Notes: generated by a model from the sequence alone, not told the origin. 64,000 bases of DNA from Candidatus Limnocylindria bacterium (GCA_046717345.1 JBKJVN010000153.1:9698-73697); one strand, 5' to 3'; numbered from the stretch's first letter, positions 30,551 through 54,152 are shown. A program made the numbers and translations.

Positions 30551-31162
30551 TCAGATGGGCGACGGCTCGAAGCCGAAGCGGGACAGAGCCGCGCGCGCAG
30601 CCACGAACGCGAGCGCCGTCAGCAATCCATTCAGCGCCGCGGTAGGCAGCAGAAGACCTGCCACCGATCCTGGTTGGGGCAGCGGGGCGCCGCCGACCAG
30701 GACCAGCACGATGAGACCCACCAGATCCACCAGCAGGCTGCCAATGACACCGCCGATCAGCGCCAAGACGACGCCTGAATGGCCGACGAGGCGGGAGGCG
30801 CTCGCCAACAAGCCGGCGACCAGGAGCAAACCAAGCGGCACGCTGCCCAGCGGATCGGTGGTGAGCAGGCTCACGGTCAACCCGCCTACGAATGCCCACA
30901 CGGCGCCACTACCCAGCCCGAGCAGGGCCGTGACGGTCACCACCGCCGCGAGCATGAGATTCGGTCTCAGATCACCCACGGCCAGCACCGGAGCCAGACT
31001 GGCGTGGGAAACGCCGGTGATGAAGGCCAGGAGCGCGCTGATGGCGTTGATCGGACGGTTCTCGCGGGTCGCTGCGACTCGTGGGGGCGGCTGAGGCCAA
31101 GTATAGGCTCCGGAAAGCGTCCGATCCAGCCTCCCGGGCCCGCAAACGTGCTCGGAGGGCAT
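30551..31162 (-). CDS. mreD: MreD-like rod shape-determining membrane protein (start uncertain; internal ATG/GTG starts possible ~30955-30988)
   Basis: Hydrophobic MreD-like pattern (PNLMLAAVV...AFVGGLTVSLLTTDPLG). Position immediately upstream of mrdA-rodA. The annotated ATG abuts parS. Confidence 0.55.
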   Translation of the reverse strand: MPSEHVCGPGRLDRTLSGAYTWPQPPPRVAATRENRPINAISALLAFITGVSHASLAPVLAVGDLRPNLMLAAVVTVTALLGLGSGAVWAFVGGLTVSLLTTDPLGSVPLGLLLVAGLLASASRLVGHSGVVLALIGGVIGSLLVDLVGLIVLVLVGGAPLPQPGSVAGLLLPTAALNGLLTALAFVAARAALSRFGFEPSPI

Positions 31163-31177
31163 GTTTCACGTGAAACA
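31162..31177. promoter_or_regulatory. parS: parS centromere-like site (perfect TGTTTCACGTGAAACA)
   Basis: Exact 16-bp palindromic match to the ParB-binding consensus. Sits ~80 bp upstream of parA. Confidence 0.85.
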
Positions 31178-31257
31178 TTGAGCCGCCGGTAACGGGTCGA
31201 AAACGGCCCAAACTGATACAATTGAGCGTGCCCGACGAAACTCGCAACGGAGTGCTC

Positions 31258-32016
31258 GTGGCTAGGGTCACGGCCTGTACCAACCAGAAGGGCGGCGTCG
31301 GTAAGACGACCACCGTCATCAACCTCGCGGCATATCTGGCCCTTTCCGGCACGCGAACGCTCGTCATCGATCTGGATCCCCAGGGCAACGCCTCGACGGG
31401 GCTGGGAGCCGACCGAGGAGCGCCGGGCACGATCTATGACGCGCTCATTGATCGGGTCGCGATCTCGGAGATCGCGAGGCCCACGGCGATCCCGGGCCTC
31501 GACCTCGTGCCGGCCACACCAATGCTTGCCGGGGCCGAGATCGAGCTGGTAGGGATCCCTGCCCGCGAGCATCGGCTGGCGGCCAGCCTGGCCGAGGTGG
31601 ACGAACGATATGACCGCGTGCTGGTGGACTGCCCGCCCTCACTCGGCCTGCTGACAGTCAATGCGTTGACCGCCGCGGATGGCGTGCTCATCCCGATCCA
31701 GGCGGAGTATTACGCGATGGAGGGTCTTGGAAACCTGGTGAACACCATCCGCCTTGTCCGTGGGTCGCTGAACCCGCGACTGGAGATCGAGGGAGTCGTG
31801 ATCACGATGTTCGATCGCCGGACGCGGCTTTCCGCCCAGGTGGCTGATGAGGTGCGACGCCACCTGAATGGCACGGTGTACGACACCGTCGTGCCTCGCA
31901 GCGTGCGGCTCAGCGAGGCTCCGAGCCACGGGCTGCCGATCGCCCTGTACGACCCCAGCTCACGTGGCGCTTTTGCCTACCAGGCACTGGCCGCTGAGGT
32001 GGCCGCTCGTGGCTGA
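31258..32016 (+). CDS. parA: Chromosome partitioning ATPase ParA/Soj
   Basis: NQKGGVGKTTT deviant Walker A. GTG at 31258 with a GGAG site upstream. The ORF track's TTG at 31222 is also possible. Confidence 0.9.
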   Translation: MARVTACTNQKGGVGKTTTVINLAAYLALSGTRTLVIDLDPQGNASTGLGADRGAPGTIYDALIDRVAISEIARPTAIPGLDLVPATPMLAGAEIELVGIPAREHRLAASLAEVDERYDRVLVDCPPSLGLLTVNALTAADGVLIPIQAEYYAMEGLGNLVNTIRLVRGSLNPRLEIEGVVITMFDRRTRLSAQVADEVRRHLNGTVYDTVVPRSVRLSEAPSHGLPIALYDPSSRGAFAYQALAAEVAARG

Positions 32017-32917
32017 GTCACCGCCCCGCGAGTTCGGGCTGGGTCGAGGTCTGGATGCCTTGATCGCACCGCCTGATGGTGGTGGTGATGCACGGCAGAT
32101 TCCCCTGGACCGGATCGTGGCCAATCCGCACCAGCCGCGCGCCCGGTTCGAGGGCCACGACCAGGACGTCCTGGCCGCCTCCATCTCCACTCACGGCGTG
32201 CTGCAACCGGTCGTGGTCCGCGGCCTGGCCAACGGCGATTACCAGCTCATTGCCGGCGAAAGGCGCGTTCGGGCCGCGCGCCAGGCCGGTCTGACGCAGG
32301 TGCCCGCCGTGATCCGCGATCCCAGCGAGGAGCAGATGATCGAGCTCGCGCTCATCGAAAACCTGCAGCGGACCGATCTCAACCCCATCGAGCAGGCCAT
32401 GGGCTTCCGGGTCCTGATCGAGCGCTTCGGGCTGGCGCACGATGCGGTGGCCAGCCGGATTGGCCGGTCGCGAGCTTCGGTCAGCAACGCGTTGCGCCTG
32501 CTGGATCTCGCTCCCGAGACCCAGGAAGCGCTTCTGGACGGCCAGGTCAGCGAGGGGCATGCCCGCGCGCTGGCGGGCTTGACGGTGTCCGAACTCCAGG
32601 TCGCGGCGCTCCAGATCGTGCTCGAGCGACACCTTTCCGTGCGCCAGACCGAGGAGCTGGTCCGGCGTCGGCGCCGCCATGGCCGTGACGATGAAACGGT
32701 CGCGGTGCGAGGGGACCTGCAGGAGCTCGAGAGCCACCTCCGCGAGATCCTCGCTACCCGCGTCGCGATCACCCGTACACGCCGGGGAGGGCGGATCAGC
32801 ATCGACTTCGCCTCGGACGAGGAGCTGACCCGCCTGTTCGCCTGGATTATCCGTACCGCACCGGAGACCGACGACAGCGACCCGATACGCATCGGCTCGG
32901 AGAAAGCATCGCCATGA
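32009..32917 (+). CDS. parB: Chromosome partitioning protein ParB/Spo0J
   Basis: [27 protein letters not shown] motifs. GTG start overlapping the parA end by 8 nt. Confidence 0.9.
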
Positions 32918-52061: not shown

Positions 52062-52079
52062 GGCTTCGGGTCCGGGAAG

Positions 52080-52214
52080 TCAGGCGCTCAGCCGGTTGCG
52101 CCCCCTCGCCCGACGGCGGGAAAGCACGCGGCGACCGCCCTTGGAAGCCATGCGAGCCCGAAAGCCGTGATTCCGCTTCCGGGCGCGCTTCTTGGGCTGG
52201 TAGGTCCGTTTCAT
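52080..52214 (-). CDS. rpmH: 50S ribosomal protein L34 (not in ORF track, 44 aa)
   Basis: Translated by hand: [44 protein letters not shown]. Confidence 0.85.
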
Positions 52215-52542
52215 CGTCGCGTGCTCACCCTCTGTTCAACCAGGGCGCCGCAGGCCGCCGAACACGCGCGAGGCTGGCGTTTCGCCAGCCTCATCGGTGG
52301 GTCGTTGACGGTCTGCGTCGCGTGGCGGCGATTCTAGCCTACCCTCGTCGCGGGGTGTCAAACCCCGGTCGGGGCCAACTGGCTGCGAATCATTGCCCGG
52401 GTTACCGGCGGGCGCTACACTACGCCGACCCCCCGGAGCCAGACGCCCACCAAACGGGCCGTATCCGCCCCGGAGGAGCACCAGAATCTCGGAATTCGCC
52501 CGGTCCGTGGCTCGCCGCGGCCGGCCTGGAGGCGTCTGTCGA

Positions 52543-53883
52543 ATGGATGCGAAACAGGTGTGGCGCGCCGTCCTCGGCGAGCTGCAGGTCAGCCTTTCGG
52601 CCGCCAACTTTGAAACCTGGCTGAAGGACACTTCGCTCGAAGAGATTGACGAGCACCTGTTCCGCATCTCGGCTCCCAACGGGTTCACCCGGGACTGGCT
52701 GGACAACCGCTATCGGACCCTGGTCAGCCAGACCCTGGCCCGGGTCGTCGGCCGTTCGGTGCGGGTCGAGTTCGTGGTGGCCGATGCCCCCGGCCCTGCC
52801 CCGGAGCAGTCGAGTGACGAGCTGACGCCGGTCCCGGTCTCCACGCCCAGCGGGAACGCGGTCAACCTCAACGGGCGGTACACGTTCTCGAACTTCATCG
52901 TCGGCAGTGCCAACCGGCTGGCGCATGCCGCTGCCCTGTCGGTCGCAGAGCGGCCCGGCCATGCCTACAACCCCCTGTTCCTGTACGGCGGGGTCGGCCT
53001 GGGCAAGACCCACCTGATGCACGCCATCGGGCACGCGGTGGCGGCCAAGTTTCCGCGCAAGCGGATCCTGTACGCAACCAGCGAGAAGTTCACCAACGAC
53101 TTCATCAACTCCATCCGCGAGCAGAAGATGGAGGACTTCCGGGGCCGATATCGGCGCATCGACGTCCTGCTCATCGACGACATCCAGTTCATCGCCGAGC
53201 GCGAGCGGACCCAGGAGGAGTTCTTCCATACCTTCAACGCCATCCACGAGATCGGCAAGCAGATCGTCCTCAGCTCGGATCGGCCGCCCAAGGCCATCAC
53301 CACCCTGGAGGAGCGGCTTCGCTCGCGGTTCGAGATGGGGCTCCTCGCCGACCTGACCCCGCCCGACCTGGAGACCCGGATCGCCATCCTGCGATCGAAG
53401 GCCGAGGACCAGCTGCACCTCATTCCGCCGGAGGTCATCGAGTTCATCGCGCGCAAGGTGGTGAGCAACGTCCGTGAGCTGGAGGGCGCCCTGAACCGGG
53501 TCCTGGCCTATGCCTCCATGAGCGGGGCACCGATCAACATCGAGCTGGCGTCGGCGGTGCTCAGCAATGTCATGTACAACCCGCGCAAGCGGTCCATCAC
53601 CCCGCAGCGCATCGTGCGCGTGGTGGCGGACTACTACGGCGTGAACCTCGATCAGCTGCGCAGCAGCAAGCGGGAGAAGGCGATCGTCGTCCCGCGCCAG
53701 ATCGCGATGTACCTGATCCGGGAGGAGACCGATATCTCGCTCCTGCGGATCGGCGCCGAGCTGGGCGGCCGCGACCATTCAACGGTGCTGCACGCCTGCG
53801 ACAAGATCAACCGCGAGATGGCCGAGAACGACGAGCTGCGCCGCGAGATCAGCGCCGTGCGGGAGATGATCTACTCGGAGTGA
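52543..53883 (+). CDS. dnaA: Chromosomal replication initiator DnaA
   Basis: AAA+ Walker [11 protein letters not shown]. Domain IV. Start at MDAKQVW. The upstream extension was rejected. Confidence 0.95.
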
Positions 53884-54152
53884 GGTGGTGGACAACCGGC
53901 CTGGGGCTGGGGACAGGCGGGGGAGCGCGTGCCGGCCGCAGTTGACGCTCCGCGTGGCCCGGAGCTGGCTTCTCAGCTGTCCGTCGACGAATCGGGCTGG
54001 CCCGCCAACCGCGCATCCCCGGGCTGCCAACACGGGCCGGACGGCCTCTCGAAACCAGATGACCGGGATGTCCACACCATCCACACCCCTACTACCAGAG
54101 ACGACGATTCAAAGACTCTATGCTTCAGGTGAACCGTAGTGAGACGCATTTC
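53884..54152. promoter_or_regulatory. oriC: Candidate oriC: DnaA-box-like 9-mers plus AT-rich unwinding element between dnaA and dnaN
   Basis: GGTGGACAA (53887), ATGTCCACA (54068) and CCATCCACA (54077, abutting) resemble TT(A/G)TCCACA. Followed by a ~65-nt stretch at ~47% GC in a 70% GC genome. Confidence 0.45.

What the first reader, a model, noticed from the sequence alone, without database searches (positions are those of the whole stretch)
31162..54152. Non-canonical origin neighbourhood: parS-parAB-gyrBA lie ~20 kb from rpmH/dnaA, separated by a Bacillus-like secA–prfB–ftsEX–ctp–smpB–ssrA block
Canonically, rpmH-rnpA-yidC-jag-(gid)-parAB lie on one side of oriC and dnaA-dnaN-recF-gyrBA on the other. 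Here parAB are fused head-to-tail with gyrB-gyrA on the plus strand. There is a plus-to-minus convergence at ~48.93 kb (after ssrA). After recF-DciA comes a PP2C-like gene instead of gyrB. There are two divergent strand-switch points (31.2 kb with parS; 52.3 kb rpmH|dnaA). This points to an origin-proximal inversion or translocation and leaves it ambiguous where replication actually starts.
Basis: partly seen in the sequence, partly recalled or inferred. Interest (0 to 1): 0.5.

Follow-up and report, generated by a model that had tools for sequence, protein, structure and literature searches.

The report
Rearranged but ordinary chromosome origin region
The gene order is as described, but it is shared across an uncultured group of soil and freshwater bacteria (Ca. 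Limnocylindria), and replication most likely starts in the usual place between dnaA and dnaN, with the partition site parS 23 kb away.

Summary
A perfect parS (31162-31177) precedes a plus-strand run: parA-parB-gyrB-DUF4287-gyrA-prs-LLM oxidoreductase-secA-prfB-ftsE-ftsX-ctp-smpB-ssrA-orf132. This run converges at 48.93 kb on minus-strand orf137-jag-yidC-yidD-rnpA-rpmH. Then come dnaA-dnaN-recF-dciA and a PP2C-fold gene where gyrB would canonically sit.

The window is from Chloroflexota, class Ca. Limnocylindria. The layout is not a private rearrangement. Both halves recur in relatives, and the full layout recurs in L001, L163 and L161, which lies on a 2.24 Mb contig.

The origin is not seriously ambiguous. 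The dnaA-dnaN spacer has two abutting DnaA boxes (54068-54085). Two CTA trios and the most AT-rich 60 and 100 bp of the 64 kb follow them. Seven related loci keep this architecture. The parS spacer and the rpmH-dnaA spacer have no box cluster.

Raw GC skew in the window only mirrors gene strand. Four-fold-site skew weakly favours an origin at 49-56 kb over 31 kb.

If so, the 17.8 kb parS-to-orf132 block is transcribed head-on to replication. One old inversion of it would restore the canonical jag-parA-parB arm; this is inferred. Interest is low: a lineage-specific variant of known parts.

The parts
31162..31177 (.). parS, a perfect 16-bp palindrome TGTTTCACGTGAAACA, 81 bp upstream of the parA start
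   Evidence: the only match in the window at up to 3 mismatches. The same position upstream of parA is kept in L001 and L166 (0 mismatches) and in L002 and L005 (1 mismatch).
31258..32016 (+). parA (252 aa, GTG start)
   Evidence: NCBIfam ParA/RepA-type ATPase hits. Start fixed by comparison with relatives.
32009..32917 (+). parB (302 aa). Its stop overlaps the gyrB start (ATGA at 32914-32917).
   Evidence: Pfam ParB_N, HTH_ParB and ParB_C. Homologues are called at about 302 aa.
32914..34881 (+). gyrB
   Evidence: TIGR01059, 904.8 bits, above its cut-off.
34893..35132 (+). Small DUF4287 ORF between gyrB and gyrA
   Evidence: Pfam PF14117, 1.8e-11. The same gene sits in L166.
35194..37701 (+). 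gyrA
   Evidence: TIGR01063, 1095.8 bits.
37757..38782 (+). prs (ribose-phosphate diphosphokinase)
   Evidence: NF002320, 393 bits. Start candidate.
38787..39734 (+). F420-type luciferase-like (LLM) oxidoreductase
   Evidence: TIGR03560 and TIGR03856 hits, both below their cut-offs. A Bac_luciferase gene sits at the same place in L166.
39803..42670 (+). secA
   Evidence: TIGR00963, 1042.7 bits.
43082..44204 (+). prfB with a programmed +1 frameshift (CTT TGA C at 43145-43151)
   Evidence: TIGR00020, 461 bits, for the downstream frame. Sequence read; both frames translated.
44201..45856 (+). ftsE-ftsX
   Evidence: TIGR02673, 278.9 bits. NF038347, 216 bits, is just below its 225-bit cut-off.
45915..47351 (+). 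ctp (S41 C-terminal processing peptidase)
   Evidence: TIGR00225, 281 bits.
47520..47978 (+). smpB
   Evidence: TIGR00086, 188 bits.
48024..48381 (+). ssrA (tmRNA), tag peptide GNRQFALAA
   Evidence: ARAGORN. Rfam RF00023, 129.9 bits.
48529..48927 (+). Small membrane ORF that ends the plus-strand block
   Evidence: High GC3 ORF. Homologue in L001. No family hit.
48961..52214 (-). orf137-jag-yidC-yidD-rnpA-rpmH
   Evidence: NCBIfam and Pfam hits. rpmH translated.
52543..53883 (+). dnaA (446 aa)
   Evidence: TIGR00362, 561.9 bits. The start matches the 446-aa calls in L161 and L163.
53884..54152 (.). Predicted oriC in the dnaA-dnaN spacer. It has a distal box at 53887 (TTGTCCACC, minus strand), tandem boxes ATGTCCACA/CCATCCACA at 54068-54085, a CCC spacer, CTA CTA trios at 54089-54094, and an AT-rich stretch from 54097.
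54153..56486 (+). dnaN-recF
   Evidence: TIGR00663, 252.9 bits, and TIGR00611, 261 bits.
56497..56856 (+). dciA-like gene
   Evidence: PF05258, 17.9 bits in the window. 6 of 6 orthologues hit it, the best at 7.2e-9.
56853..59069 (+). 738-aa protein: N-terminal PP2C fold, central helices, C-terminal six-bladed beta-propeller. It sits where gyrB would be in the canonical order.
   Evidence: 510 homologues at E <= 0.001; all taxon-bearing names among the 120 listed are Limnocylindria or Chloroflexota, except one labelled Zixibacteria. AF2 model pLDDT 73.8. Foldseek E 4e-11 to PppA, tPphA and PstP, and hits to NHL/Pizza propellers.

Best explanation
This is the origin region of a Ca. Limnocylindria (Chloroflexota) chromosome, built from ordinary parts in a lineage-specific order.

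Initiation (inferred): replication most likely starts in the 269-bp dnaA-dnaN spacer (53884-54152). DnaA would bind two abutting boxes (54068-54085), extend over the adjacent trinucleotide repeats and open the AT-rich stretch just before dnaN. This is the basal unwinding mechanism described for Bacillus subtilis.

Segregation (inferred): ParB loads at a single parS 22.9 kb to the left, directly upstream of its own operon. ParA then segregates the origin-proximal region.

History (inferred): the parAB-gyrBA string and the replacement of gyrB by a PP2C-fold membrane protein after recF-dciA are old features shared across the class. With the origin at 54 kb, the 17.8-kb parS-to-orf132 block is transcribed against the leftward fork. 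One ancient inversion of that block, plus a separate move of gyrBA, would derive the layout from the canonical rpmH-rnpA-yidC-jag-parA-parB arm.

Shown: gene identities, motif positions and their conservation. Inferred: the initiation site, ParB function and the inversion history.
For: Taxon and conservation:
- The closest SecA loci are Chloroflexota / Ca. Limnocylindria MAGs.
- The left half of the layout recurs in L001, L002, L005 and L166. The right half recurs in L082, L084, L085, L161 and L163. The full junction (smpB .. <jag) recurs in L001, L163 and L161, which is on a 2.24 Mb contig.

Origin in the dnaA-dnaN spacer:
- The only tandem TCCACA pair in the window is here. The pattern has 1 exact match, against 0.26 expected at up to 1 mismatch.
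- TCCACNNNNTCCACAC occurs exactly once in each of L082, L083, L085, L161 and L163, always in this spacer.
- In the alignment of six genomes, TCCACACC is invariant. Three-base repeats and a GAAGATAG-type A/T-rich stretch follow it.
- Relatives carry 4-7 TCCAC-core boxes per 400 bp here, against a background of about 0.4-0.9 per 400 bp.
- 54097-54156 (45% GC) and 54079-54178 (49% GC) are the most AT-rich 60-bp and 100-bp stretches of the 64 kb. The same holds in L161 and L163.
- The box-to-CTA orientation matches the C. difficile oriC2 trio CACCTACTACTA... (PMC7561715).

Other candidate sites:
- There is no box cluster in the parS spacer or the rpmH-dnaA spacer in any genome: none at all in most, a single box in L166 and L163, and three scattered ones in L082.

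Composition:
- At four-fold sites, a co-orientation term is significant for an origin at 48.95 kb (p 0.004) or 54.0 kb (p 0.02). It is not significant at 31.17 kb (p 0.40).

parS:
- It is conserved upstream of parA in five genomes.
- parS sites are commonly near origins, and single-site genomes are known (PMC7333895).
Against: - No experiment and no whole-chromosome skew is available.
- The window's own spacer is box-poor. It has 3 TCCAC-core boxes, each 2 mismatches from TTATCCACA, and only two consecutive canonical trios (CTA CTA). The published search rule asks for three.
- Placing the origin at 54 kb makes about 13 genes head-on, including gyrBA, secA, prfB and ssrA, which is unusual for essential genes. 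The cleanest divergent strand switch in the window is at 31.2 kb.
- The skew regression is weak. The 49-52 kb minus-strand genes do not fit it. An origin beyond the right edge is only modestly worse (p 0.07). Relatives give the same direction without gene-level significance.
- In more distant relatives (L002, L005, L081, L082) the two halves are not adjacent, so the 23-kb spacing is not universal in the class.
Confidence: 0.78

Rival explanations
1. Replication starts at or next to the 31.2-kb strand switch (mreD | parS-parA). The whole window except jag-rpmH would then be co-directional with the forks. The dnaA-dnaN boxes would serve only dnaA/dnaN regulation or DnaA titration.
For: - This is the largest divergent strand switch in the window. 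Almost all genes from 5 to 31 kb are on the minus strand, including the atp operon, glyA, prfA, rodA and mrdA. All genes from 31.2 to 48.9 kb are on the plus strand.
- The raw cumulative GC skew has its minimum at about 27-33 kb.
- 31164-31223 is the second most AT-rich 60 bp in the window.
- The switch is conserved in L001, L002, L005 and L166.
Against: - The spacer has no TCCAC-core box in four of five genomes, and one in L166. It is short, about 100-180 bp.
- The raw skew minimum is explained by first-codon-position G excess (+0.2 on coding strands), so it only tracks gene strand.
- Four-fold-site skew gives no support for an origin at 31.17 kb (p 0.40).
- The AT-rich patch is accounted for by parS itself and a conserved TACAAT/TAGAAT hexamer before parA.
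Confidence: 0.05
2. The origin lies outside this window. dnaA would be unlinked from oriC, as in E. coli or Caulobacter, and both strand switches would be ordinary operon boundaries.
For: - An 'origin to the right of the window' model fits four-fold-site skew only a little worse than 54 kb (p 0.07 against 0.02).
- dnaA-oriC linkage is not universal (general knowledge).
- The window's own box cluster is weak.
Against: - The conserved tandem boxes, repeats and AT-richest stretch in eight genomes are hard to explain as dnaN promoter elements alone.
- parS sits within 23 kb, as expected near an origin.
Confidence: 0.1
3. The layout reflects a recent inversion or translocation, or a misassembly, private to this genome.
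Against: - Independent assemblies from different samples and sequencing projects share both junctions: L001, L161, L163 and L166.
- No inverted repeats flank the block.
- Protein identities of 60-85% across these genomes imply an old event.
Confidence: 0.02

Closest known systems
Canonical Gram-positive origin region (B. subtilis and M. tuberculosis type: parB-parA-(gid)-jag-yidC-rnpA-rpmH | dnaA-dnaN-recF-gyrB-gyrA)
   Same: - rpmH-rnpA-yidD-yidC-jag diverge from dnaA-dnaN-recF(-dciA).
- The predicted oriC lies in the dnaA-dnaN spacer, as in Mycobacterium and Streptomyces and as the unwinding half of the B. subtilis origin (my own knowledge).
- The canonical order was seen directly in L092, L111, L123 and L147.
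   Different: - parAB are not next to jag, and gyrBA are not after recF.
- The four genes form one co-directional string, with the parB stop overlapping the gyrB start. The string starts 21 kb left of rpmH|dnaA and points towards the origin.
- A PP2C-fold membrane protein follows recF-dciA.
Basal unwinding system of bacterial oriC (two DnaA boxes + DnaA-trios + AT-rich region; PMC8287927, PMC6669920)
   Same: - Two tandem boxes in the TTATCCACA orientation, and a 3-bp spacer.
- CTA repeats on the top strand (= 3'-GAT-5'), then the AT-richest DNA in the window, just upstream of dnaN.
- Same polarity as the C. difficile trio (PMC7561715).
   Different: - Only two consecutive canonical trios in the window and in L085.
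- L081 and L084 have runs of ATG (3'-TAC-5'), and L083 has an interrupted run, instead of GAT-type trios.
- The boxes directly abut, at 9-bp periodicity.
- No function has been tested.
Chromosomal ParABS with origin-proximal parS (review PMC7333895)
   Same: - Consensus parS.
- ParA ATPase.
- ParB with its N-terminal, HTH and dimerisation domains.
- The site lies near the predicted origin and next to the parAB genes.
   Different: - Only one site was seen in 64 kb.
- The operon continues into gyrB-gyrA.
- The site lies on one side of the origin, in a block transcribed towards it.
B. subtilis secA-prfB ... ftsE-ftsX-ctpB and smpB-ssrA clusters, and prfA-prmC-sua5-rpiB-glyA-atp-murA-mbl (my own knowledge of the B. 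subtilis map)
   Same: The same local gene adjacencies occur on both sides of parS.
   Different: Here the clusters are compacted into 50 kb next to the origin, and the secA-ssrA part is inverted relative to the prfA-atp part.

Membership tests
Chromosomal ParABS partition system | parS matching TGTTNCACGTGAAACA | tested here: met
   0 mismatches at 31162-31177, where 0.30 matches are expected at up to 3 mismatches. Conserved in 4 relatives.
Chromosomal ParABS partition system | ParA-type Walker ATPase and ParB with N-terminal, HTH and dimerisation domains, encoded together | tested here: met
   NCBIfam ParA-family hits and TIGR00180 at 162 bits. Pfam ParB_N, HTH_ParB and ParB_C.
Chromosomal ParABS partition system | parS close to the replication origin | tested here: inconclusive
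   parS is 22.9 kb from the predicted oriC. The origin itself is predicted, not measured.
Chromosomal ParABS partition system | ParB binds parS and ParA moves the complex | not testable with these tools
   Needs ChIP-seq or microscopy.
DnaA-dependent oriC with basal unwinding system | A DnaA box with at most 2 mismatches to TTATCCACA, plus a second box | tested here: met
   ATGTCCACA and CCATCCACA, 2 mismatches each, abut at 54068-54085.
DnaA-dependent oriC with basal unwinding system | At least three consecutive 3'-NAN-5' trios within 16 bp of the box (rule in PMC8287927) | tested here: inconclusive
   The window has CTA CTA, then CCA, so two in a row. L081 and L084 have four or more ATG (3'-TAC-5') repeats. 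The position is conserved in six genomes.
DnaA-dependent oriC with basal unwinding system | AT-rich unwinding region next to the trios | tested here: met
   The lowest-GC 60-bp and 100-bp stretches of the window lie here, and likewise in L161 and L163.
DnaA-dependent oriC with basal unwinding system | Cluster of DnaA boxes above background | tested here: inconclusive
   Only 3 TCCAC-core boxes in the window's spacer, which is not the top 400-bp bin. In relatives there are 4-7 and it is the top bin.
DnaA-dependent oriC with basal unwinding system | Replication actually starts here | not testable with these tools
   Needs marker-frequency analysis, whole-genome skew or unwinding assays.
Canonical origin gene order | rpmH-rnpA-yidC-jag divergent from dnaA-dnaN-recF | tested here: met
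Canonical origin gene order | gyrB-gyrA directly after recF | tested here: not met
   recF is followed by the dciA-like gene and the PP2C-fold gene. gyrBA lie at 32.9-37.7 kb.
Canonical origin gene order | parA-parB next to jag/gid, transcribed away from oriC | tested here: not met
   parAB lie about 17 kb from jag and are transcribed towards dnaA.
DciA (PF05258) | Match to the family profile at its curated threshold | tested here: inconclusive
   The window protein scores 17.9 bits against a 24-bit cut-off. All 6 orthologues hit the family, the best at 7.2e-9.
PP2C/PPM phosphatase | PP2C fold | tested here: met
   Foldseek probability 1.0, E 4e-11 to 1e-10, and target-normalised TM 0.66-0.72 to PppA, tPphA, PstP and the S. 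agalactiae phosphatase. The N-terminal domain has pLDDT mostly 80-90.
PP2C/PPM phosphatase | Metal-binding acidic residues of the catalytic motifs | not tested
   No Pfam PP2C hit. By eye the usual NED and DGxGG positions read NEP and AQLT. No structural superposition was made.

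The most novel reading that the evidence does not exclude
Across a whole bacterial class, an 18-kb block is kept within 5 kb of the replication origin in the head-on orientation. The block carries the centromere (parS-parAB), gyrase, secA, prfB, ftsEX and smpB-ssrA. This would imply either selection for that arrangement, for example coupling of ParB/SMC loading, gyrase supply or origin-proximal transcription to fork passage, or an initiation site that standard DnaA-box logic does not predict.
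Probability: 0.12. Interest if true: 0.5.

Novelty: new variant of a known kind. Interest (0 to 1): 0.2.

Why it matters
- It gives a concrete, testable oriC and parS prediction for Ca. Limnocylindria, an abundant class of soil and freshwater Chloroflexota with no cultured model.
- It shows that this clade's origin region is a stable derived arrangement: a parAB-gyrBA string, and a PP2C-fold membrane protein after recF-dciA.
- If the origin call is right, a conserved block of essential genes lies head-on next to the origin. This is a modest natural case for work on replication-transcription conflict.
- Otherwise the parts are standard, and departures from the textbook order are common.

Tried and rejected
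- **Raw GC skew in the window.** The minimum at about 30 kb looked like an origin signal. Codon-position analysis shows it comes from G excess at first codon positions, so it only reports gene strand. Rejected as evidence.
- **Third-position skew per gene.** It is negative on every coding strand and shows no obvious replication component.
- **Strand-skewed 7-mers and KOPS-like GGGNAGGG.** The counts are too low and the top words are codon-driven. This cannot separate 31 kb from gene strand.
- **Strict E. coli DnaA box at up to 1 mismatch.** Two scattered hits, fewer than the 2.66 expected by chance. I had to relax the search to a TCCAC(A) core.
- **Inverted repeats at the block ends.** Only chance matches inside coding DNA.
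- **Consensus promoter and terminator scans at the switch points.** Nothing found, so I make no promoter or terminator claims.
- **Looking up the window's own SmpB in the assembly index.** It is not on record, so the source contig could not be identified or extended.
- **The recent Limnocylindria genomics paper, PMC13212565.** No mention of dnaA, skew or origin.
- **Literature search for parB-gyrB adjacency.** The only hit refers to the canonical region spanning the origin.
- **Four-fold-site skew in relatives.** Same direction as in the window but not significant at gene level, and the jag-rpmH genes do not fit.

Full report
**What is there**

The window is 68% GC. I called genes by third-position GC and named them with NCBIfam and Pfam.

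- From about 5 kb to 31.1 kb almost every gene is on the minus strand: mreB, murA, the atp operon, glyA, aconitase X, rpiB, sua5, prmC, prfA, DUF1385, rodA, mrdA and a weak mreD-like ORF. The one exception is an AI-2E transporter.
- A perfect parS lies at 31162-31177. It is the only match in the window at up to 3 mismatches, where 0.30 are expected.
- An unbroken plus-strand run follows: parA (31258), parB, gyrB (its start overlaps the parB stop), a DUF4287 ORF, gyrA, prs, an F420-type LLM oxidoreductase, secA, a Cys-rich ORF, prfB, ftsE, ftsX, an S41 protease, smpB, tmRNA and a small membrane ORF ending at 48927.
- After a 33-bp gap, orf137, jag, yidC, yidD, rnpA and rpmH run on the minus strand to 52214.
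- dnaA (52543), dnaN (54153), recF, a dciA-like gene, a 738-aa gene and a BFN-domain gene run on the plus strand.

The extra genes and the corrected starts are listed.

**Whose genome it is, and how widespread the layout is**

The closest SecA loci are Chloroflexota MAGs labelled Ca. Limnocylindria or 'uncultured Chloroflexia', at 72-82% identity. Everything else is at or below 56%. Names attached to homologues of the 738-aa protein and of ParB point to the same taxon.

- The left half of the layout, mrdA<mreD< | parS parA>parB>gyrB>gyrA>prs>..secA>prfB>ftsE>ftsX>ctp>smpB>, recurs in L001, L002 and L005. It recurs as far as secA in L166, which is on a 1.08 Mb contig. parS is at the same place in each, with 0-1 mismatch.
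- The right half, jag<yidC<yidD<rnpA<rpmH< | dnaA>dnaN>recF>dciA>738-aa>BFN>, recurs in L082, L084, L085, L161 and L163.
- The junction between the halves (smpB/ssrA converging on jag) recurs in L001, in L163 (300 kb contig) and in L161 (2.24 Mb contig). The L161 738-aa protein is only 60% identical to the window's.
- In L002 and L005, other genes follow smpB. In L081 and L082, other genes precede jag. The 21-23 kb linkage therefore holds for part of the class only.

This rules out a private rearrangement or a misassembly.

**How unusual 'non-canonical' is**

My metagenome sample of dnaA loci does contain the textbook order: parB<parA<jag<yidC<yidD<dnaA>dnaN>recF>gyrB>gyrA in L092, L111, L123 and L147. 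It is not the rule, though. Among non-Limnocylindria loci with at least 7 kb downstream of dnaA, 12 of 31 carry gyrB. Among those with at least 9 kb upstream, 6 of 30 carry parAB. Departure from the canonical order is common.

**Where replication most likely starts**

The dnaA-dnaN spacer (53884-54152) is the best candidate.

- It holds the only tandem TCCACA pair in the window: ATGTCCACA and CCATCCACA, abutting at 54068-54085. The pattern has one exact match, against 0.26 expected even at one mismatch.
- After the boxes come CCC, CTA CTA, a degenerate three-base pattern and the most AT-rich DNA of the 64 kb. GC is 45% at 54097-54156 and 49% at 54079-54178.
- The arrangement is conserved. In an alignment of six genomes, TCCACACC is invariant and a second box lies 9 bp upstream. 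Three-base repeats and a GAAGATAG-type stretch follow.
- TCCACNNNNTCCACAC occurs once in each of L082, L083, L085, L161 and L163, always in this spacer.
- Relatives add upstream boxes such as TTATCCACG, ATATCCACC and TTGTCCACA, giving 4-7 per 400 bp. That is the densest bin in each locus.
- In L161 and L163 the same spot is again the AT-richest 100 bp.
- The polarity, box then CTA repeats on the dnaN-ward strand, matches the DnaA-trio described for C. difficile oriC2 (PMC7561715) and the basal unwinding system (PMC8287927).

There are caveats. The window's spacer has only three core boxes, each with two mismatches. It has only two consecutive canonical trios, where the published rule asks for three.

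The alternatives are weaker. The parS spacer and the rpmH-dnaA spacer have no box cluster in any genome.

**Composition**

The raw cumulative GC skew bottoms at about 27-33 kb. This is a gene-strand artefact. Coding strands have +0.2 skew at first positions and about -0.1 at third positions everywhere.

I then modelled G against C at four-fold sites on the coding strand, with a term for co-orientation with the fork.

- The fit improves for origins placed at 48-56 kb and not at 31 kb.
- At gene level the p-values are 0.004 for 48.95 kb, 0.02 for 54.0 kb, 0.40 for 31.17 kb and 0.07 for an origin right of the window.
- The signal is that the 31-49 kb plus-strand genes are more C-rich on their coding strand (-0.094). 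The 5-31 kb minus-strand genes are at -0.003 and the 54-64 kb plus-strand genes at -0.026. This is what a head-on block would show.
- Relatives go the same way (L002, L005, L166) but without gene-level significance, and the jag-rpmH genes do not fit.

I treat this as weak support only.

**Consequences and history (inferred)**

With the origin at 54 kb, parS lies 22.9 kb to the left. That is about 1% of a 2.2 Mb chromosome, well inside what is reported for origin-proximal parS (PMC7333895).

The 17.8-kb parS-to-orf132 block is then transcribed towards the origin. Flipping exactly this block would give rpmH, rnpA, yidD, yidC, jag, orf137, parS-parA, parB, gyrB, gyrA ... ssrA, then mreD, mrdA and so on, all co-directional with the leftward fork. 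It would also restore the canonical jag-parA-parB adjacency.

One ancient inversion plus a relocation of gyrBA is therefore the simplest history. No flanking repeats remain, as expected for an old event. The left breakpoint is shared by all relatives examined.

**The genes after recF**

- The 119-aa ORF is DciA-like. It is below threshold in the window, but all six orthologues hit PF05258, the best at 7.2e-9.
- The 738-aa protein has no Pfam hit. It has 510 homologues at E <= 0.001, and some JGI records name it PrpC.
- Its AF2 model has pLDDT 73.8. The N-terminal domain matches bacterial PP2C phosphatases (Foldseek E 4e-11). A helical region and a six-bladed propeller follow.
The catalytic motifs look substituted by eye, but I did not test that.

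**Verdict**

The region is a clade-wide variant of a standard origin neighbourhood with a well-supported conventional oriC call. The only mildly surprising point is the conserved head-on block, and that depends on an origin position that still needs whole-genome skew or coverage data.

Noticed in passing
window 56853-59069: A 738-aa protein conserved after recF-dciA. Nearly all named homologues are from Limnocylindria or Chloroflexota. It has an N-terminal PP2C fold with no Pfam hit, and its catalytic motifs look substituted by eye. Central helices and a C-terminal six-bladed NHL-like propeller follow. The PP2C-then-helices-then-C-terminal-domain order is reminiscent of the origin-proximal mycobacterial PstP (membrane topology not tested here).
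   Followed up: partly
window 43082-44204: prfB carries the classic programmed +1 frameshift site, CTT TGA C, at 43145-43151. The 22-codon N-terminal frame ends at that TGA.
   Followed up: partly
window 34893-35132: A 79-aa DUF4287 ORF sits between gyrB and gyrA and is also present in L166. Relatives have an even larger gyrB-gyrA gap of 0.8-1.2 kb. L166 adds a thioesterase-like gene there.
   Followed up: partly
window 7687-24660: On the minus strand lie prfA (preceded by a DUF1385 gene), prmC, sua5, rpiB, aconitase X, glyA, the atp operon, murA and mreB. This is the same long-range order I recall for B. subtilis, with aconitase X inserted. It looks like deep Terrabacteria-type synteny.
   Followed up: no
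window 42772-43095: A 107-aa Cys-rich ORF (CxxxC and CxxC motifs, proline-rich N-terminus) lies between secA and prfB. No family search was made on it.
   Followed up: no
window 32914-32917 and 44201-44204: ATGA stop/start overlaps link parB to gyrB and prfB to ftsE. This suggests translational coupling and long operons across functionally unrelated genes.
   Followed up: no
window 48385-48420: A GC-rich hairpin (GGCGGCC..GGCCGCC) followed by TTTT lies right after tmRNA. It falls below the terminator scan's threshold.
   Followed up: partly
window 31217-31222; L001, L002, L005 upstream of parA: A conserved TACAAT/TAGAAT hexamer lies about 40 bp downstream of parS in four genomes. It could be a parA promoter under ParB control, but the consensus promoter scan found nothing.
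   Followed up: partly
window 18000-23000 and 55000-59000: Two stretches reach 72-74% GC against a window mean of about 68%. They cover aconitase X to prmC and recF to the PP2C-fold gene.
   Followed up: no
L140 2521-2536: The same tandem-box pattern, TCCACNNNNTCCACAC, lies just downstream of dnaA in an unrelated metagenome contig whose DnaA is about 48% identical. The abutting-box design may extend beyond Limnocylindria.
   Followed up: no
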